Source: Malacoraja senta
Lineage: Eukaryota
DNA: 64,000 nt
Reading direction: 5' to 3'
Assembly: GCA_038087875.1 (NCBI GenBank)
Contig: CM075993.1
Location: 1,986,001 to 2,050,000, forward strand
Shown here piece after piece: positions 4,319 to 55,930 of the stretch. Each line of letters opens with the position of its first letter. Positions within the stretch are counted from its first letter, which is position 1. The notes under the pieces were generated by a model. The model saw only the letters and a list, made by a program, of their open reading frames with translations. It did no database searches and was not told where the DNA came from. A program made the position numbers and the translations under genes.

Positions 4319-4951
4319 CTAAGGAGGAAGTTCTCCTCCTCGCTTCGACGAGAGTTCAGGATCGGTCTGAAGAAGGGTCTCGACCCGAAACGTCAACCAT
4401 TCCTTCTCTCCAGTGATGCTGCCTGTCCCGCTGAGTTACTCCAGCATTTTAAAACTATTCTTACAATCTATAGTTTGGAAAGATCTAATAGCAAGGCTTC
4501 ACCTGAGTGATTTGGTAATGATCTCAAAATTATCTGGCCCACCGTTAATTAAGTTATTTGTTGAGGCTTCTCGATCAAAGATATTGGCACCACCCATTAT
4601 AGACTAGCACCTTACTCAGTCTTGCTTAAGATTGGATTCTGCTTAATTATAGACTAAGCTCTGCTCTTCCCCTTTATCTCACTAACATTGCAGCAATCTG
4701 ACCCAGAGGAATATCTTGCTGAATGGTTTGTAATCTGAATAGCTCAATAAACCTGACTTCATTGGCACAATGATAACTGTTTTATGTTAATTTATTATTG
4801 AGGTTATGTGTAAGGAAGAGCTGCAGATGTTGGTTTAAATCGAATGTGGACATAAAATGCTGGGTCTCGACCCGAAACGTCACCCATTCCTTCTCTCCAG
4901 AGATGCTGCCTGTCCCACTGACTTACTCCAGCTTTTTGTGTCGTTTTATTT

Positions 4952-5705
4952 TGGAAACTGCTGGAGTAACTCAGCGGGACAGGCAGCGTCTCTGGAGAGA
5001 AGGAATGGGTGACGTTTCGGGTCGAGACCCTTCTTCAGACTGATGTCGGGGGAGAGGGGCGGGACAAGGAGAGAATGTAGGCGGAGACAGTGAGACTGGT
5101 GAGGACTGGGAAGGAGGAGGGGACGGAGGGAGAGGGAAAGCAAGGACTATTTGAAGTTAGAGCAGTCAATGTTCATACCGCTGGGGTGTAAGCTGCCCAA
5201 GCGAAATATGACATGCTGTTCCTCCAATTTGCGCTGGGCCTCACTCTGACAATGGAGGAGGCCCAGGACAGAAAAGTCAGATTGGGAATGGGAGGGGGAG
5301 TTGAAGAGCTGAGCCACCGGGAGATCAGGTAGGTTAAGGCGGACTGAGCGGAGGTGTTCAGGGAAACGATCGCCGAGCCTGCGCTTGGTCTCGCCGATGT
5401 AGAGAAGTTGACACCTGGAACAGCGGATACAGTAGATGAGGTTGGAGGAGGTGCAAGTGAACCTCTGCCTCACCTGGAAAGACTGTTTGGGTCCTTGGAT
5501 GGAGTCGAGGGGGGAGGTAAAGGAACAGGTATTGCATCTCCTGCGGTTGCAGGGGAAAGTAACTGGGGAGGGGGTGGTTTGGGTGGGAAGGGACGAGTTG
5601 ACCAGGGAGTTGCGGAGGGAACAGTCGCTGCGGAAAGCAGAAAGGGGTGGAGATGGGAAGATGTGGCCAGTAGTGGGATCCCGTTGGTGGTGAAAATATT
5701 GGAGG
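4952..5705 (-). mobile_element. Penelope-like element (Neptune-type), 5'-truncated: Cys-rich linker + GIY-YIG endonuclease + 3' repeat with hammerhead
   Basis: ORF 5147-5737 contains CNRRRCNTC, NLIYCIRC..C.LLYIGET.RRL..RF.EH and G.N C-terminal motifs. Hammerhead core at 5011-5038 is in the same orientation. Confidence 0.9.
5011..5038 (-). ncRNA. Minimal type-I hammerhead ribozyme core (representative of at least 15 intact copies)
   Basis: CUGAAGA-A-GGGUC UC GACCC-GAAA-CG-UC; self-complementary ACGU replaces stem III. Confidence 0.75.
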
Positions 5706-6189
5706 ATTATATGCTGTATGCTGTACCCATCCTTCAAACCTGCTCACAATGCAAAGAGCAGCTGAAGACTAACACATGGAGTCTTTCTGAGTCCTAATTT
5801 AGACTGAATGGGATCACCATTTTAACATGACCCAGCAACTGAATGGAGAGCTGCTTGCCCTCCAGATCTCTTGCCAATTGTACATCATATATCATTCAGT
5901 GGGATGAAAGGCTGAAGTTTCAATCCTAAGAGCCCTTGTGAACCCTGGTAGGATTTGTCATGATGAGAAACTGCGCAAAGCTGGTTATTTGGGAAAAAAA
6001 CCACTTCCATCTTATCTACCTCTCAAGGAGAAGATTTTGCCCCAAGGGGTTGGATTGACAAAATCAAGTAAAAGAGATACAGCAAAGTGCAGTTTAGAGT
6101 ATACGGAGTGCAGAGTATATTCTCACCATTGTAGCGCATCAGTTCCATAGACTGGCATGTACTTACATATAAGCCACAGATGCACCATT

Positions 6190-6905
6190 ATTTCCTTATC
6201 ACCATCTGCTTTGATCTATAGTTTTCACACCCTACCCTTCCATATCTCCAGAGTCCCTCTCCCCTGACTCTCAGTCTGAAGAAGGGCCTCGACCCGAAAC
6301 GTCACCCATTCCTTCTCTCCAGAGATGCTGCCTGCCCCGCTGAGTTACTCCAGCATTTTGTGTCTATCTCTGGTGTAAACCAGCACCTGCAGTTCCTTCC
6401 TACACATTCCCCTTTTAGTTTATTTTACTTTAGTTTGGAGATACAGCATGGAAAGAGGCCCTTCCACCCACCGAGACCGTGCCGACCAGCGATCATCGTA
6501 CACCAGAAGGGTCTTGAGCCGAAACGTCACCCATTCCTTCTCTCCAGAGATGCTGCCTGTCCCGCTGAGTTACTCCAGCATTTTGTGTCTAGCCTACAGC
6601 ATTGCGAATGGGTTCCACTCCAGCCTCCCGTCAGATGTATAATCACCTTCAGGGTCGGGAATAAATATATCGGAACCATCTCATTACTCGTGTGTGAATC
6701 TGCACATTTCCGCAGGGGTCCAAAGGGGCATGATTGTGTTTTGTATTAACAGGTTCATCAGCATTTCTGCTCAGCTGAGAACGTGATTGATAAGCTCTGT
6801 GCAGTCCCACTGTTTCTGAAGAAGGGTCTCGACCCAGAACGTCACCCATTCCTTCTCTCCAGAGATGCTGCCTGTCCCGCTGAGTTACTCCAGCATTTTG
6901 AGTCC
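6190..6905 (+). mobile_element. Cluster of three Penelope 3'-end fragments
   Basis: Repeated gaagggtctcgacccgaaacgtcacccattccttctctccagagatgctgcc near 6276, 6505 and 6816. Confidence 0.8.
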
Positions 6906-13135: not shown

Positions 13136-14127
13136 CTTAATACCTAAACATCCCTTCCCAGCTTTGTTACATTTTTGCTGCTGCTAAGACCCTCGTTGTG
13201 TTTCAAAGCGAGCTGAGCATTTTGTTTTGTAGATTTCAGCTTCCACTGATTTTATTTTTGTTTTGCAATAAGCAACATAATGGATCTGTCCTTCTACCCT
13301 TTTGTAATTCCAAAAACATAACCCGTCAGTGAGAGACAATGACGGATTTCTGATGGCTGTGGAAAAAAGAACATATTTATTTCTAATGCAACATCACCAA
13401 ACAAATCATGGATGACATTAAATCCCTGGTTCCAACCTGCAGGGATGAATCTAACTTAAACACAGTGTATTTACACAACTGTATGAGGTATTACGGACCA
13501 AAGTCTCACAGGAAAAAATTATAGTTACTTGGAACCAACTGCAAAACATAAACTGCATTTTACAAAAATATAGAGGTTGCAATTGCTGAAGTATTAGATT
13601 TGCTAAGAGTGATGAAATTGCAAAAATATTAATAGCTAATTTGGAAAAATTGCAACACCATATATCATCCTTGAATTCGACTAAAATAAAATCAGCTTTC
13701 GTCTCTCTTCACGGATATTGGAACCACAGCGCTTTTTAAGTTTATTATATAGTCTTAGCTTTTATAGACTAGATGCTGTGCGGAAACAAGGCCATTCGGC
13801 CCATATAGTCTGCACCTACCATCAACTATCCAGTTTATATTAATCCCATACTTTTATTGTCCCCACATTCTCGTCATTTCAGTTTTCAGTTTAGTTTATT
13901 GTCACGTGTATCGAGGTACAGTGAAAAGCTTGTGTTGCGGGCTAACCAGTCAGCGGAAAGACAATACATGATTACAATCGAACCATTTACAGTGTACGGA
14001 TACATGAACAGGGGAATAATGTTTAGTGCAAGGTAAAGCCAGTAAAGTCCGATCAATGATAGTCCGAGAGTCATCAGTGAGGTGGATAGTAGTTCAGGAC
14101 CGCTCTCTAGTTGCGCGAGGTTGATTA

Positions 14128-14375
14128 AAGGGCCTGTTCCACTAGGGCGTCGTCTGCGCGTCACGCAAGTGGCGCGCGAAGATTTTGTGAATCCCGAAAT
14201 CTTGGGGCGCTGCGCGCGACCGCGCGTCACTGCCTAGGTCACCACGCACCATGCGCGCGTAATACACGGCATGCGCGCATCACGTGTGCGTCACGATGCG
14301 CGTGTCGTGCGTCGTGACGCGTAAATGATGTTGCGTAAATGACGCGCAAATGACACCCAAGTGGGACAGGCCCTT
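14128..14375. mobile_element. CpG-rich Harbinger-like MITE nested in a Rex1 tail (13880-14400, minus)
   Basis: TIR aagggcctgttccact / agtgggacaggccctt with TA/TWA flanks; the host LINE sequence resumes on both sides. Confidence 0.8.
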
Positions 14376-14612
14376 TAGTTGCCTGTTAACAGCTGGGAAG
14401 AGAATCATCAGCTTAATGCAAGCACTTGGCCTTTATTTGCTTGTCATTTTCGCATGAAATACCCTTTCAAAGTAAAAGCACGTCAGCAGATTGCAACTTC
14501 AATCCCTTTGTATACTCAAACACATGGAGCCTGACATTGTAATTCTCGGTGTAACATTAACTGAAGAAAAACACTTCTGGTGACCTGCACCGACTAACAG
14601 CTTCACTAATAA

Positions 14613-14961
14613 GACAAACACAAAAAGCTGGAGTAACTCAGCGGGACAGGCAGCATCTCCAGAGAGAAGGAATGGGTGACGTTTCGGGTCGAGACCCTTC
14701 TTCAGACTTTTTTTCCCCTTTACTGTTTAAATCGGGCAGCTTTCCTCTGCTCATAGATTTTCAAAGTTACTTTTAATTGGTTCCCTATGGAAAGCATTTT
14801 GCAATCAATTTTGCCTTCATAACACAAAGTATTTAAGAAGGAACTGCAGATGGTGGTTTAAACCGAAGATAGACACAAAAAGCTGGAGTGACTCAGCGGG
14901 ACAGGCAGCGTCTGTGGACAAAAGGAATAGGTGACGTTTCAGGTCGAGACCCTTCTTCAGA
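14613..14961 (-). mobile_element. Tandem Penelope 3' repeats with two hammerhead cores, inside one 12-bp direct repeat
   Basis: cttcactaataa at 14601-14612 and 14962-14973; cores at 14678-14705 and 14933-14960. Confidence 0.75.
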
Positions 14962-15292
14962 CTTCACTAATAACCTGTATTCATGGGCTTAATTGGTATA
15001 TTGTAAGAGTATTATGACTTAGCAAGTGTGGTGCTTTATGTATAACTCAATCCCACACAGCTTGATGGTTTAATGTTCTATACAAAGATTACACATAATA
15101 ATACACTGAGAGATAGACTCCGTCATTGTGTAGAAGATGTTTCTTACTTTAATGTAATAAAAAGGAACTGCAGGCGCTGGTTTATACCGAAGCTAGTCAG
15201 TTTGTAGGATGTAAAACTGGGATAACATAACTATTGCTGGAGTGGACCGTCAGAAGAAGGGTCTCAACCCGAAACGTCACCTATTCCTTATA

Positions 15293-15625
15293 AAAGCCCT
15301 GTCCCGCGACACGAGTTCATTCCAAGAGCTCTCCCGACTTTGCCCTGATTCGAACTCGGACATTTACGGTAATGGCTGCTCGTCGGTACTCGGGGCTCTC
15401 GTGGACATTTTTCAACATGTTGAAAAATCTTCCCGAGTCTTCCCGTGCTTACCTGCCGTTAGCGAGTCTTCCCGAGTACCTGCCGTTAGCGTTACGAGCC
15501 GCTAAGAGACGTCCCCGAGCTCCGACGTACCTGCTACGTTCATTCTCCGTGCTTACCACGAGTTTGATTTTTTTTTAAACTCGGGAGGGCTCTTGGAATG
15601 AACTCGTAGAGTGAGACAGGGCCAT
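15293..15625. mobile_element. Harbinger-like MITE (~330-bp family)
   Basis: TIR gccctgtccc...gagacagggc; inverted relative to the copy at 16668-16999. Confidence 0.8.
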
Positions 15626-16257
15626 TACTCAGCAGGACAGGCAGCATCTCTGGAAAGAAGGAATGGGTGACGTTTCTGGTCGAGACCATTCTTCAGACTC
15701 CAGAGATGCTGCCTGACCCGCTGTGTTACTCCAGCACTCTGTGCCTTGTCTCAGTATATGGACATTGGGAAAGAAGCCTCACTTGTTGCGTCTACCGTCA
15801 CCATTCATAAATATGAAAAACACATAACCTTCAGAATAAATCATCGCACTGTTTGTTTTGAAGCTCTGCAGTCCAATGCATCTGAAAAATCAAATGTGTA
15901 AACATCTTTAAAGATTCATCTATAAATATTAATAGCGACATTCAATATCTGAAAATATTACCGTCAGAATGTGTGGAAAATTAAGATATTCTTCTTCTCC
16001 GGCTTAATAAATTTGAATTATTACCAAGAGCACTGGGCAGAAAAAGAGGAATCTGCATTTGTAGAATAACTTTCATGACATTAGTTTCCTCCAACTCCAA
16101 AGGATATGAGGGAACTGCAGTTGCTGGTTTAAACCAAAGATCGACACAAAAAGCTGGAGTAACTCAGCGGGAAAGGCAGCATCTCTGGAGAGAAGGAATA
16201 GGTGACGTTTTGGGTCTGAAGATGTGTCTTGACCCGAAACATCACAGGTGATTGATG

Positions 16258-16610
16258 TTTAAGAAAGAACTGCAGATGCTGGAAAAATCGAAGGTAGACA
16301 AAAATGCTGGAGAAACTCGGCGGGTGAGGCAGCATCTATGGAGCGAAGGAAATAGGTGACGTTTCGGGTCGAGACTAGGAAACATCTATGGAGCGAAGGA
16401 ATAGGTGATGTTTCGGGTCGAGACCAGGAAGCATCTATGGAGCGAAGGAATAGGTGACGTTTCGGGTCGAGACCAGGAAGCATCTATGGAGCGAAGGAAT
16501 AGGTGACGTTTCGGGTCGAGACCCTTCCGGGTCTCGACCCGAAACGTCACCTATTCCTTCGCTCCATAGATGCTGCCTCACCCGCTGAGTTTCTCCAGCA
16601 TTTTTTGCCT
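16258..16610. mobile_element. Penelope-derived fold-back composite with four tandem ~50-bp units
   Basis: Unit gcatctatggagcgaaggaataggtgacgtttcgggtcgagac x4, then an inverted arm; degenerate TSD 16244-16257 / 16611-16624. Confidence 0.8.
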
Positions 16611-16667
16611 ACAGCTGATCGATGCTCGGTGTGGACTCGGTGGGCCTGAGGGTCTGTTTGCATCCTA

Positions 16668-26845: not shown

Positions 26846-27084
26846 ACCTGACCAGGTCGAGACCAGGAAGCATCTATGGAGCGAAGGAATAGGTGACGTT
26901 TTCGGGTCGAGACCAGGAACCATCTATGGAGCGAAGGAATAGGTGACGTTTCGGGTCGAGACCCTTCCGGGTCTCGACCCGAAACGTCACCTATTCCTTC
27001 GCTCCATAGGTGCTGCCTCACCCGCTGAGTTTCTCCAGCATTTTTGTCTACCTTCGATTTTTCCAGCATCTGCAGTTCCTTCTT
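26846..27084. mobile_element. Penelope fold-back composite (same junctions as 16258-16610)
   Basis: gagaccaggaagcatc and gagacccttccgggtctcg junctions; direct repeat agacaagtggcc at 26834-26845 / 27085-27096. Confidence 0.8.
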
Positions 27085-27499
27085 AGACAAGTGGCCGTGG
27101 TCTCTAAGTCTATAACCTGAATCTGAAGCCTAGACCCTACTCAAACATAACACATAATCCACACTATTTTGTTTGTGCTACTGAATATAGTTTGGCTCCA
27201 ACCCCAGGCCATCTGCTCTGATGGGCAAACCCAAAAATTATTCCTAGTTTTCTCAGGATATGGAATTTGATTGCTGCTGCTGCTAATTGCGTAGTATTAT
27301 AACTGAATTCAAAAAACAAATTGCAATTAGACAAAAATACTTCATTAGCAACACAGCAATGTTCAATGTCTTTTCAAAAGAAAGGGCACATATTGATACA
27401 GCTTGACAAGTTCAAGACTACTTGACTGCAACGTGTTATTTTCGCTGTTGGATCATTTCTATTCCTGCCACTTCAGTTCCAATGACAACAACTGCATTT

Positions 27500-40430: not shown

Positions 40431-40641
40431 ACTTACGATACTAAATTAAATCCGATTATATCTTTCTCTGTTTGTCTTTTTATGCGTGTAGCCTAGAGGG
40501 TGCAGGGATCTCAAAAGTTGCTGGCATTTTTAAAAGGAGACCAACTTTCCCACCAAGCTGACTGCTGAGCACCACTCTGGGATAATCTCGAAGCCGTAAC
40601 AATGGGCATGGGTGAAGTAAAATGGCGCATCGTTATACACA

Positions 40642-40904
40642 AGGTAGACAAAAGTACTGGAGAAACTCAGCAGGTGAGGCAGCATCTATGGAGCGAAGGA
40701 AATAGGCGACGTTTCGGGTCGAGACCCTTCCGGGTCTCGACCCGAAACGTCACCTATTCCTTCACTCCATAGATGCTTCCTGGTCTCGTCCCGAAACCGA
40801 AGGGTTTTGTCGCCTATTAGACAAAAGTACTGGACAAACTCAACGGGTGAGGCAGCATCTATGGAGCGAAGGAATGGGTGACGTTTCGGGTCGAGACCCC
40901 TTTT
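40642..40904. mobile_element. Penelope fold-back composite
   Basis: gagacccttccgggtctcg junction; TSD catcgtt(a/g)tacaca at 40628-40641 / 40905-40918. Confidence 0.8.
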
Positions 40905-41639
40905 CATCGTTGTACACACACCTTTTTTATGACCAGGCTATTAATCAAATCTGTCGAGGTAACTTCTGCTTTCTGACTGTGTTGTGTTAATGACTGATTC
41001 ATAAGGCTGAGCGGAGGAGGAAGGACTACAAGGTCAACTTTCCAATCTTCTGAGCTCAATGCTGTCTGAATCTCTCCAGAGCCACGAAGAGTCGAGCTTC
41101 TGATTAATGTAGAAACAAGGAACTTCAGAAGCTGGTCTATATCAGAGATAGACACAAAGTGCTGGAGTAACTCAGCGGGTCAGGCATCATCTCTGGAGCA
41201 AAATGAAGGGGTGACGCTTCAGGTCGGGACCTTCCTTCAGACTCTGAGGAGAAGTTGTTTGGTTTTAGCTTAGTTTAGAGATACAGCGCGGGAACAGGCC
41301 CGTCGGCATGACTTTAAGGTGAGAGCGGCAAATATTAAAGGGGGATGTGTGGGAGGATTTTTTTTGCTCAGAGGGTGGTGAGTACAGAGAATGTTACACC
41401 AGGGTTGACGCGGACAGGTTGGTGGCATTTATGTTTACATATGCTGTTGTGCAAGTAAGAATTTCATCGCTCTATCTGGGACATATGACAATAAAACACT
41501 TGAGAAAAAACTGCAGATGCTGGTAAAGTCGAAGGTAGACACAAAATGCTGGAGTAACTCAGCGGGCGAGGCAGCATCTCTGGAGAGAAGGAATGGGCCA
41601 CGTTTCGGGTCTCGACCCGCTGAGTTACTCCAGCAGTTT

Positions 41640-42325: not shown

Positions 42326-42638
42326 AAGGTACACAAAAATGCTGGAGAAACTCAGCGGGTGCAGCAGCATCTATGGAGCGAAGGAAATAGGCAACGTTTC
42401 CTTCGCTCCATGCAAAGTGTTGAACAATCTCCACTGTAGGAAATAGGCAACGTTTCGGGCCGAAACCCTTCCGGGTTTCGTCCAGAAACGTTGCCTATTT
42501 CCTTCGCTCCATAGAAGAAGGGTTTCGGGCCGAAACGTTGCCTATTTCCTTCGCTCCATAGATGCTGCTGCACCCGCTGAGTTTCTCCAGCATTTTTGTG
42601 TACCTTCAATTTTCCAGCATCTGCAGTTCCTTCTTTAA
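42326..42638. mobile_element. Penelope-derived composite with a captured 27-bp segment
   Basis: Perfect 15-bp TSD cactatagtttttta at 42311-42325 / 42639-42653; sister copy at 55382-55775. Confidence 0.85.
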
Positions 42639-52324: not shown

Positions 52325-54010
52325 TAAGGCAGCTAATCTACCGCAGCTGCCCTCTGCATCTATCCTTTATACACAGCTCAGGTTATGTCAAAGATAAAGC
52401 AAAATATATGTGCATTTCATCGCCCCAATTTGCCCTCACCGACCAACATGCCCCACATCTACACTAGTTCCACATGCCTCTGTTTTGGCCCAGATCCCTC
52501 ACAGCTGACCATAATGTCACCTTGAGCCTCCTGCAGGGGGCGAGCATGAGTCACTGTCCAAAGCCATTCGATTCAGCTGTCATCCTTTGCATATCCCTAT
52601 GTTGCGTTAAGTTTACTTTAGAGATGCAGGGTGGATAAAAACGCTGGAGAAACTCAGCGGGTGCGGCAGCATCTATGGAGCGAAGGAAATAGGCAACGTT
52701 TCGGCCCGAAACCCTGAAGGAAATAGCAACGTTTCGGGGCGAAACCCGGAAGGGTTTCGGGCCGAAACGTTGCCTATTTCCTTCGCTCCATAGATGCTGC
52801 TGCACCCGCTGAGTTTCTCCAGCATGAATAAGGTGTTATTTCCCCCCCCCCCCCCCCCGATGTTCGATGCCCTCCCCCCCCCCAGGAAAACCCTTCTTCA
52901 GCGTGGAACCCTTCTTCAGCGTGGAAACAGGCCCTTCGGCCCACCGAGTCCGTGCTGACCAGCGATCCCCGCACACGAACACTATCCTACACACACAGGG
53001 GACAATTTTTTTAAATCATACCAAGCCAATTAACCCACAAACCCTGGACGTCTTTGGAATGTGGGAGGAAACCAGAGAACCCACGGGGAGAACGTACAGA
53101 CTCCGTACAGACAGCACCCGTAGTCAGGATCGAACCTGGGTCTCTGACACCAGTAAGGCAGCAACTCTACCGCTGCACCACCGTGCCGGCCTAGCTAAAT
53201 CTGGTGTTGACTTGCATCATCTCTTCAACTGCTTGATCTCTCAAGCCCTCGACAGGCTAGCTGATAATTCTAGGCACATCGGGCTTTGCTTCTCCGTTCC
53301 TGACCTCCAGTACCTCCAGAAAAAACCGTTTGTCTTCACACTTCTCAAAGGCCACTTCATTTCAAAGACAATTATTTACAGAGCTGCTATAATTTGATAG
53401 ATTTCCTGTCATTCATTACGCCTGGCCTTGCCCATGTTGTCTTTTTCATCAGAGTTCACCGCGTTACTAAAAGGTTGTGTTTACTCCCATTGGAACAGAA
53501 CCTAAGATGTATTGAATTGAATTGAATTGAATTGAACACATTGTTGTCATGTGTGGCAAGTCCCAGTGAAATCTTTGCTTGCTCACCCAAGGTATGCTAA
53601 TGGTCGCCACCTAAAGGGCGCTGAAAAACCCACGCAGTATCCGCTGCCAGGTCCTCCTTTCTTCTTCTTCCCCCCTCCTCATGGCGGTTTCCCCCATGCC
53701 GGGTCCTCCCTTGTTCTTCTACCCCCCCCCCCTCCCCTCCATCCCCCTCCAGATCCGCTATCACCGTGACAACAGCCTTACATTGGTTTCCGTCTTCAGG
53801 TACATCGACCTCCCGGTTTTCCGCTCATTTCCTTGTAAAGTTTTGCAAGATAACGTCCATAAAGATGAACGTACTTTTTTAACAATTGTTCATTTTAGTT
53901 TAGTTCAGTTTAGTTTAGAGCTATAGCGTTGGAACAGGCTCTTCGTCCCGCAGGCCGATGGTCACCCATACACACTAGGGGTGAAGGGCCTGTTTCCACG
54001 CTGGCACTTA

Positions 54011-55204: not shown

Positions 55205-55930
55205 GTGGGAGAGTCTAGGACCAGAGCGCGCAGCCTCAGAATAGAAGGATGTACCTTAAGAACGGAGATGAGGAGGAATTTCTTCATCCAGGGGGTGGTG
55301 AATCTGTGGAATTCATTGCCACAGACGGCTGTGGAGGCCAAGTCAATGGATATTTTGAAAATGGAGATTGATAAATTCTTGTTTAAGAAGGAACTGCAGA
55401 TGCTGGAAAATCGAAGGTAGACAGAAATGCTGGAGAAACTTAGCGGGTGCAGCAGCATCTATGGAGCGAAGGAAATAGGCAACGTTTCGGGCCGAAACCC
55501 TTCTTCTATGGAGCGAAGGAAATAGGCAACGTTTCTGGACGAAACCCGGAAGGGTTTCGGCCCGAAACGTTGCCTATTTCCTACAGTGGAGATTGTTCAA
55601 CACTTTGCATGGAGCGAAGGAAACGTTGCCTATTTCCTACAGTGGAGATTGTTCAACACTTTGCATGGAGCGAAGGAAACGTTGCCTATTTCGGGCCGAA
55701 ACGTTGCCTATTTCCTTCGCTCCATAGATGCTGCCTCACCCGCGGAGTTTCGGGTCGAAACCCTTCTTTAGACTCTTGATAGATTCTTGATTAGTACGGG
55801 TGTCAGGGGTTATGGGGAGAGGGCAGGAGAATGGGGTTAAAAGGGAAGGATAGATCAGCCTTGATTGAATGGTGGATCGGACCCGATGGGCCGAATGGCC
55901 TGATTCTGCTCCTCGGTGTTATGGTCTTGT
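55205..55930 (+). mobile_element. CR1 3' end interrupted by a Penelope composite (55382-55775)
   Basis: TSD ttgata(a/g)attcttg at 55368-55381 / 55776-55789. Confidence 0.85.

What the first reader, a model, noticed from the sequence alone, without database searches (positions are those of the whole stretch)
14601..14973. Retrozyme-like tandem hammerhead cassette with a 255-nt monomer
Seen: two same-strand intact cores (14933-14960 and 14678-14705, minus) separated by the PLE tail plus ~125 bp of non-PLE spacer. One 12-bp direct repeat (cttcactaataa) encloses both, suggesting insertion as a single unit. Known: metazoan non-LTR retrozymes are short tandem units with type-I hammerheads that are processed to circular RNAs. 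Inference: the two cores could dimerise in cis and excise a 255-nt RNA (14932-14678); the spacer may be transduced flank from the donor locus.
Basis: partly seen in the sequence, partly recalled or inferred. Interest (0 to 1): 0.7.

Follow-up and report, generated by a model that had tools for sequence, protein, structure and literature searches.

The report
Penelope fragments flanking captured spacer DNA
Two short end-pieces of a very common jumping gene (a Penelope-like element) and a unique 125-base stretch between them appear to have been pasted in together once, long ago, which is a known kind of accident and not a self-copying circular-RNA element.

Summary
The anatomy is real. On the minus strand lie two minimal hammerhead cores (14960-14933, 14705-14678), 255 nt apart, inside an exact 12-bp direct repeat that chance rarely gives (0 of 1662 control pairs). 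The retrozyme reading is not supported. Both cores belong to a Penelope-like (PLE) terminal repeat with 82 hits in this window, so a close pair is expected (P about 0.5). Only about 98 of the 255 nt are repeated. The spacer sits at flank-like depth in four public runs, so it looks unamplified (depth is only a rough guide). Helix I has 2 bp, one core has lost G10.1-C11.1, and the monomer folds no better than shuffles. The copies are 88.5% alike and share no rare change, though a common source was not rejected statistically. Best reading (0.65): one old composite PLE insertion that carried unrelated DNA between two solo terminal-repeat pieces and left a 12-bp target duplication. This architecture is published for rotifer PLEs. 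Neither an empty site nor a donor of the spacer was found, so single-event origin is inferred, not shown.

The parts
14601..14612 (.). Left copy of the 12-bp direct repeat (inferred target-site duplication; last 2 bases shared with the end of copy B)
14611..14708 (-). Copy B: PLE terminal-repeat piece; starts at the AGT just before the hammerhead core, ends at the short-tail position (column about 96-98)
14678..14705 (-). Minimal hammerhead core B; G10.1-C11.1 kept, palindromic ACGU helix III, helix I 2 bp; predicted cut between 14678 and 14677
14709..14833 (.). 125-bp spacer, 33.6% GC, no second copy in the window, flank-like depth in four runs; boundary with copy A uncertain by a few bases
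14834..14963 (-). Copy A: PLE terminal-repeat piece with the long tail (column about 130); starts at the same AGT
14933..14960 (-). Minimal hammerhead core A; G10.1-U11.1 (a C-to-T change at a CpG), helix I 2 bp; predicted cut between 14933 and 14932
14962..14973 (.). Right copy of the 12-bp direct repeat (first 2 bases shared with the start of copy A)
   Evidence: intactness in organism B unresolved
14678..14932 (-).
5147..5743 (-). Context only: GIY-YIG-type ORF end followed by a pyrimidine-rich UTR and the same core at 5038; ties the repeat to PLEs
   Evidence: (E 6e-4, below Pfam's cut-off)

Best explanation
A one-off, old, composite insertion made by the machinery of a very abundant Penelope-like element (PLE). 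Shown: two terminal-repeat pieces in the same orientation, unique DNA between them, and one 12-bp repeat around the whole. Inferred mechanism: the PLE endonuclease nicked an AT-rich target. Reverse transcription began inside the tail of copy B at the family's short start site. It ran through B, the 125-nt spacer and copy A, and stopped at the family's usual 5' limit (AGT before the core). Repair duplicated the target. The template was most likely an uncleaved read-through RNA from a locus where the spacer lay between two existing copies; alternatively the enzyme jumped from one RNA to a second RNA made of copy A plus flank. The hammerheads are passengers, and the cassette has not multiplied.
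For: The 12-bp outer repeat is far above chance. Repeats of 7-15 bp flank other insertions of this family in the window, including multi-piece ones at 42331-42635 and 40633-40906. Family 3' ends are bimodal: 24 of 79 hits end at columns 91-99 and 27 of 79 at 125-130, with matching piles of contig ends at 14618 and 14837. B and A sit in these two classes, like the two internal start sites and the 30-40-bp tail of PLEs (PMC11167929; PMC8557442). By a crude rule, 30 of 40 hits reaching the core start lack the family UTR upstream, so both copies starting at AGT is ordinary. A and B are 88.5% alike; each one's partner ranks 15th and 27th of 56. They share no rare change and differ at columns 35 and 43, which are linked family variants (3/1/1/18, Fisher p 0.009). 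In vitro, unprocessed RNA is the main PLE template and hammerhead mutants still insert (PMC11167929). The same architecture is published for rotifer PLEs (PMC3846280). Age: copy A joins the right flank in organism B, and the left flank runs ungapped into copy B in organism C, whose flank differs at 20 of 260 letters plus indels.
Against: No donor copy of the spacer was seen. Its depth is at or below flank depth in all four runs, whereas a surviving donor at 85% identity or more should about double it; depth in that tool is not a copy number and 74-100% of each run was read. No empty site was listed (only 15 of 1951 joints were shown). In organism B's bridging contig, 10 left-out and 3 put-in letters fall somewhere in 14892-14977 (my arithmetic on tables 2-4 and 8), and the unique part of the right repeat is also 10 letters long, so that repeat is not shown to be ancestral. 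The organism C junction has only 27 letters in copy B, under the tool's 31-letter rule. A single source for A and B is not rejected (AU p 0.275), and A carries the main-type base at column 63, so it is not a clean member of the second variant group.
Confidence: 0.65

Rival explanations
1. Two independent PLE insertions landed 125 bp apart in native DNA; the spacer has always been here and the 12-bp repeat is chance or a later event.
For: The spacer is at single-locus depth in three organisms with no donor seen. Its GC (33.6%) matches the right flank (33.2%). Close same-strand neighbours are common: 13 pairs within 450 nt. The copies look independent. There are unlocated gaps near the right repeat in organism B.
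Against: An exact 12-bp repeat abuts both outer junctions: 0 of 1662 control pairs, and 1 of 13 neighbour pairs has one of 8 bp or more. Neither copy has a repeat of its own, though most single hits lack one in that test.
Confidence: 0.15
2. A single short PLE copy with its target duplication came first. A piece [tail + spacer + core] from another locus then entered it by homologous recombination, either by pop-in of an excised DNA circle or by break repair off a two-copy donor. With a circle the spacer was moved rather than copied.
For: Explains the outer repeat, the unlike copies and, in the circle version, a single-copy spacer all together. Homologous targets are dense: 82 hits in 64 kb.
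Against: It needs recombination within about 100 bp of 85-90% identical DNA, which is inefficient (general knowledge). No mosaic pattern was tested or seen.
Confidence: 0.12
3. One reading: a proto-retrozyme. The two cores dimerise, excise a 255-nt RNA that is ligated, and the cassette is either a 1.4-round reverse transcript of such a circle or a present source of it.
For: The geometry allows a nested dimer with a 4-bp palindromic helix III. The unit size (255 nt), GC (41.6%) and long target duplication fit non-LTR retrozymes (PMC7229834). One source for A and B is not rejected. Retrozymes are proposed to derive from PLE terminal repeats (bioRxiv 10.64898/2026.07.22.740005).
Against: No tandem array and no amplified spacer. 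Helix I has 2 bp; core A has G10.1-U11.1; stem II probability is at most 0.015 and helix III about 0 in the ensemble; the dimer fold costs about 21 kcal/mol in a model without tertiary energy and without a positive control. The monomer folds worse than 81 of 100 shuffles. A circle would give identical copies, yet they differ at two linked family variants. Published minimal-hammerhead dimers cleave poorly (PMC4209133), and 1 of 9 Xenopus dimers cleaved.
Confidence: 0.06

Closest known systems
PLE-mediated capture between solo pLTRs in Adineta vaga (Arkhipova et al. 2013, PMC3846280; passages and the section on host gene expansion read)
   Same: Unrelated non-coding DNA between direct terminal repeats, whole unit inside a short target duplication (8-10 bp there), optional 31-bp tail on one repeat.
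   Different: Here the repeats are minimal (96-130 bp), the cargo is 125 bp, there is no inverted repeat, the tail is internal rather than at the end of the insertion, and no empty site was found.
[quoted passage not shown]
   Same: Core boxes, extra base between positions 9 and 10.1, palindromic positions 15.2-16.2 with no loop 3, location in the terminal repeat; dual motifs 100-700 bp apart are reported.
   Different: Helix I is 2 bp (as in the D. virilis variant, against 4-5 bp in S. mansoni) and helix II is 4 bp. The close pairs reported there are on opposite strands. Core A has lost the G10.1-C11.1 pair.
Poseidon PLE of Anolis carolinensis (Frangieh et al. 2024, PMC11167929; parts 1-2 of 4 read)
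   Same: Two internal reverse-transcription start sites downstream of the hammerhead that give short and long tails; AT-rich targets; cleavage not needed for insertion.
   Different: That work describes the autonomous element; the clade of the family here was not determined.
Metazoan non-LTR retrozymes (Cervera and de la Pena 2020, PMC7229834, part 2 of 6 and passages; Li, Clavereau and Pollet 2026, bioRxiv 10.64898/2026.07.22.740005, parts 1-3 of 5)
   Same: Core-to-core distance in the 150-450-bp range, GC under 50%, long target duplication, link to PLE terminal repeats.
   Different: The unit is not repeated in tandem or elsewhere, the hammerheads are minimal and degenerate, and the monomer is not highly self-paired.

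Membership tests
Non-LTR retrozyme | Whole unit repeated in tandem (at least two consecutive units, each with a hammerhead) | tested here: not met
   TRF finds no array of such a period, including with the 2026 preprint's main parameters; about 98 of 255 nt repeated
Non-LTR retrozyme | Unit present in many genomic copies | tested here: not met
   Spacer depth 2-62, at or below flank depth, against 1e5-1e7 for the PLE parts in four runs (depth is a rough guide only); one hit in the window
Non-LTR retrozyme | Canonical type I hammerhead with about 6-bp helix I and loop contacts | tested here: not met
   2-bp helix I in monomer and dimer pairings; third and fourth pairs unpaired in 17 of 20 aligned cores; no Rfam hammerhead match
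Non-LTR retrozyme | Highly self-paired monomer | tested here: not met
   z +0.93 linear; z +0.87 circular, 81 of 100 shuffles fold as well or better
Non-LTR retrozyme | Size 150-450 bp, GC under 50%, target duplication longer than 4 bp | tested here: met
   255 nt, 41.6% GC, 12-bp repeat
Non-LTR retrozyme | Self-cleavage and circular RNA in tissue | not testable with these tools
   No RNA holder listed; only contigs were laid
PLE minimal hammerhead | Core boxes, extra base after A9, palindromic 15.2-16.2 | tested here: met
   (helix II 98.8% of cells paired; covariation not above shuffles, 32 of 500)
PLE minimal hammerhead | G10.1-C11.1 pair | tested here: inconclusive
   Met in core B, G-U in core A
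PLE terminal repeat | Lies downstream of a GIY-YIG ORF end; optional 30-40-bp tail | tested here: met
   ORF 5147-5743 (below cut-off, top hits 0.96-0.97 in clusters with GIY-YIG on 13-56% of members), UTR and core at 5038; bimodal 3' ends
PLE capture between solo pLTRs | Unrelated DNA between direct repeats, enclosed by one target duplication | tested here: met
PLE capture between solo pLTRs | Empty site with one copy of the duplication; donor of the cargo | tested here: inconclusive
   Neither seen in four runs; 15 of 1951 joints shown; relatives appear to share the insertion

The most novel reading that the evidence does not exclude
The cassette is the footprint of a retrozyme being born: two PLE minimal hammerheads around captured host DNA excised a 255-nt RNA, which was circularised and reverse-transcribed for about 1.4 rounds into this site. 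It would be a direct genomic record of a circular template in PLE transposition and could still make a 255-nt circle. Not excluded, because one source for both copies is not rejected and no RNA could be examined.
Probability: 0.06. Interest if true: 0.6.

Novelty: new member of a known kind. Interest (0 to 1): 0.17.

Why it matters
As most likely read, it matters little: it is one more example, here in what looks like a cartilaginous-fish genome (recalled from the repeat content, not tested), that PLE terminal repeats can carry unrelated DNA to a new site. It also warns that in a genome with a PLE tail every 800 bp, two hammerhead cores a few hundred bases apart are expected and should not be called retrozymes. 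If the circle reading were true, it would make the proposed PLE-to-retrozyme transition and the circular-template model of PLE tandems directly testable at one locus.

Tried and rejected
Whole-genome search for the spacer: no genome is held for this window. Rfam: no match at gathering score in the window; at E up to 10, only a chance snoRNA match in 14400-15200. Exact 38-nt spacer pattern in metagenome contigs: 0 matches, uninformative for an animal locus. No RNA holder listed; this says nothing about expression. 4 of the 24 listed runs were laid; parts without cover (right flank in X1, X2, X4; left flank in X9) prove nothing. Spacer as PLE ORF continuation: rejected; the frame from core A stops a few codons into it and its depth is flank-like. 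Spacer as coding sequence: 2 of 6 frames are open over 41 codons, not pursued. Splicing onto the AG before the core to complete helix I: in 10 UTR-bearing copies no GT within 200 nt gives more than 2 bp, and neither core here has a pyrimidine tract upstream. Polyadenylated end at the spacer's A run: no convincing signal at the usual distance (read). Tree of 44 of the 82 hits (those covering columns 14-80): poorly resolved, 3 of 41 inner branches well supported. Literature: five searches; the search for Penelope + hammerhead + skate gave 2 irrelevant papers. No claim of absence from print is made beyond these. Supplements of the bioRxiv preprint (its family tables, including one cartilaginous fish) were not seen and could list related units. 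Earlier-finding look-ups by sequence, place and two word sets returned nothing.

Full report
Observation. On the minus strand the region reads: 12-bp repeat, copy A (14963-14834), 125-bp spacer (14833-14709), copy B (14708-14611), 12-bp repeat. Each copy begins with AGT, then a minimal hammerhead core (CUGAAGA, extra A, 4-bp stem II, GAA, ACGU, C), then the same downstream tail. The cores are 255 nt apart. The repeat at 14601-14612 and 14962-14973 is exact and unique in the window.

What the repeat family is. The 130-bp copy A hits the window 82 times, and 17 strict cores are present. At 5038 the core follows a pyrimidine-rich UTR and the end of an ORF (5147-5743) with a weak GIY-YIG match (E 6e-4, below Pfam's cut-off; language-model neighbours at 0.96-0.97 in clusters with GIY-YIG on 13-56% of members; context). 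Family 3' ends are bimodal: 24 of 79 at columns 91-99 and 27 of 79 at 125-130, where 130 is the end of my query. Contig ends pile up at the same two places in public runs (table 7). This matches the optional 30-40-bp tail of Penelope-like elements (PLEs) (PMC8557442, passages), which reflects two internal reverse-transcription start sites (PMC11167929, parts 1-2 of 4). The core has the marks of PLE minimal hammerheads (PMC4209133, parts 1-2 of 4). Across 20 aligned cores helix II is paired in 98.8% of cells, helix I beyond 2 bp is not, and covariation does not beat shuffles. By a crude rule whose reference set was the 10 UTR-bearing copies themselves, 30 of 40 hits that reach the core start lack the family UTR upstream. 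Both copies starting at AGT is therefore ordinary. That the genome is a cartilaginous fish is my recall from the repeat content, not a call.

What is and is not above chance. Two cores close together are not: 13 same-strand pairs of core-bearing hits lie within 450 nt, and uniform placement of the 17 strict cores gives at least one same-strand pair 100-450 nt apart with P = 0.53. The outer repeat is: 0 of 1662 mismatched boundary pairs and 1 of 4311 random pairs reach 12 bp, and only this one of the 13 pairs has an outer repeat of 8 bp or more. An earlier, unfiltered control gave 7 of 3100 at 12 bp or more; it included boundaries next to other PLE pieces, which one search left out. Other insertions of the family carry repeats of 7-15 bp around multi-piece structures.

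Retrozyme tests. TRF finds no array of such a period here under three settings, including the main parameters of the 2026 preprint. In four public contig sets from three organisms, the PLE parts have summed depths of 1e5-1e7, while mid-spacer bins are at or below flank depth (X1 16.5 and 14.5 against 26.1; X2 2.2 and 2.1 against 2.5; X9 61.6 and 51.4 against 65.9; X4 23.1 and 47.3 against 51). The tool warns that depth is not a copy number, but a gap of five orders of magnitude argues against an amplified unit. Helix I has 2 bp in every pairing and core A has G10.1-U11.1. The stem II pairs have probability at most 0.015 in the folded ensemble, and forcing the dimer costs about 21 kcal/mol; that figure lacks tertiary energy and a positive control. 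The monomer folds worse than most shuffles, linear (z +0.93) or circular (z +0.87). Retrozymes are described as multi-copy tandem units with canonical type I motifs and highly self-paired circles (PMC7229834, part 2 of 6 and passages). Minimal-hammerhead dimers cleave poorly, and 1 of 9 Xenopus dimers cleaved (bioRxiv 10.64898/2026.07.22.740005, parts 1-3 of 5).

Are A and B copies of one RNA? A circular template would give identical copies. They are 88.5% alike over 96 columns; 32% of 1345 family pairs are as alike or more; each one's partner ranks 15th and 27th of 56; the only shared difference from the majority is a common variant (14 of 57). They differ at columns 35 and 43, which are linked among the other main-type copies (3/1/1/18, Fisher p 0.009; 4 further copies with other states left out). 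Against this reading: the AU test does not reject holding them together (p 0.275, 44 of the 82 hits), and A has the main-type base at column 63. Independent sources are favoured, not proven.

Age and orthologues. Organism A matches the left flank and junction with no difference (X1, X2). In organism C one contig runs from the left flank into copy B with all 13 gap letters located in the flank, but only 27 letters lie in B, under the tool's 31-letter rule. In organism B one contig bridges copy A and the right flank. The insertion therefore seems older than splits that left about 5-8% flank divergence. Two results count against my reading. First, no donor of the spacer appears. Second, in the organism B contig 10 left-out and 3 put-in letters are unlocated within 14892-14977 (my arithmetic), a stretch that includes the right repeat, whose unique part is 10 letters. 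No empty site was listed, but only 15 of 1951 joints were shown.

Mechanism. Best reading (0.65): one PLE-driven insertion. Shown: structure, outer repeat, tail classes, unique spacer. Inferred: priming at an AT-rich nick; internal start in B's tail; copying through spacer and A to the family's usual 5' limit, on an uncleaved read-through RNA or with one template jump; duplication of the target. In vitro work supports uncleaved RNA as template. Rivals: independent insertions with a native spacer (0.15), secondary recombination into a single copy (0.12), and a circle-templated proto-retrozyme (0.06).

Comparison. [quoted passage not shown] The cassette works like that and meets its structural features; empty site and donor are unresolved. 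It is not a member of the non-LTR retrozymes: four defining features were tested and not met. Two earlier AI notes from other genomes describe similar one-off PLE composites; they are unchecked leads, not support.

Verdict. A real but ordinary feature: a new member of a known kind, interest 0.17. The boldest reading not excluded, a fossil of a retrozyme being born from a circular template, has probability about 0.06.

Noticed in passing
window, family-wide (for example 6273-6279, 5038-5044, 14961-14963): Many copies start at or within a few bases of the AGT before the core. In UTR-bearing copies the context is mostly TCAGT/CCAGT, like an initiator (a TCACT initiator-like site is noted for a rotifer PLE), and also like a 3' splice site after a pyrimidine tract. 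A transcription start there would explain the fixed 5' limit.
   Followed up: partly
window 16260-16611, 26855-27085, 40633-40906, 42331-42635, 52638-52823, 55384-55774: A second tail subfamily forms fold-back insertions with 47-50-bp tandem fragments of the core, several inside 7-15-bp repeats; this points to frequent template switching.
   Followed up: partly
window 42411-42440 and 55564-55692: The same piece of about 30 bases that is not in the usual tail sits inside two separate scrambled PLE insertions, tandemly doubled in the second; this suggests a composite that itself moved. Coordinates of the first are approximate.
   Followed up: no
window 6276 onward, 63258 onward, 14960 onward: The frame that starts at the first C of the core is open through the whole tail in several main-type copies (LKKGLDPKRHPFLLSRD...), as if the tail were the start of the PLE ORF, yet the core has no AUG.
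   Followed up: partly
window 14126-14377 and 15291-15627: Two elements with terminal inverted repeats of 38 and 51 nt, MITE-like; the second interrupts or abuts PLE pieces at 15249-15289 and 15627-15746.
   Followed up: no
window 4811-5743: End of a PLE (GIY-YIG ORF end, UTR, core, tail) followed by inverted tail pieces; the longest autonomous-type remnant seen in the window.
   Followed up: partly
window 6276, 28251, 23936, 47135: At least three unlike UTR sequences lead into nearly the same core and tail; several PLE subfamilies appear to share one terminal module.
   Followed up: no
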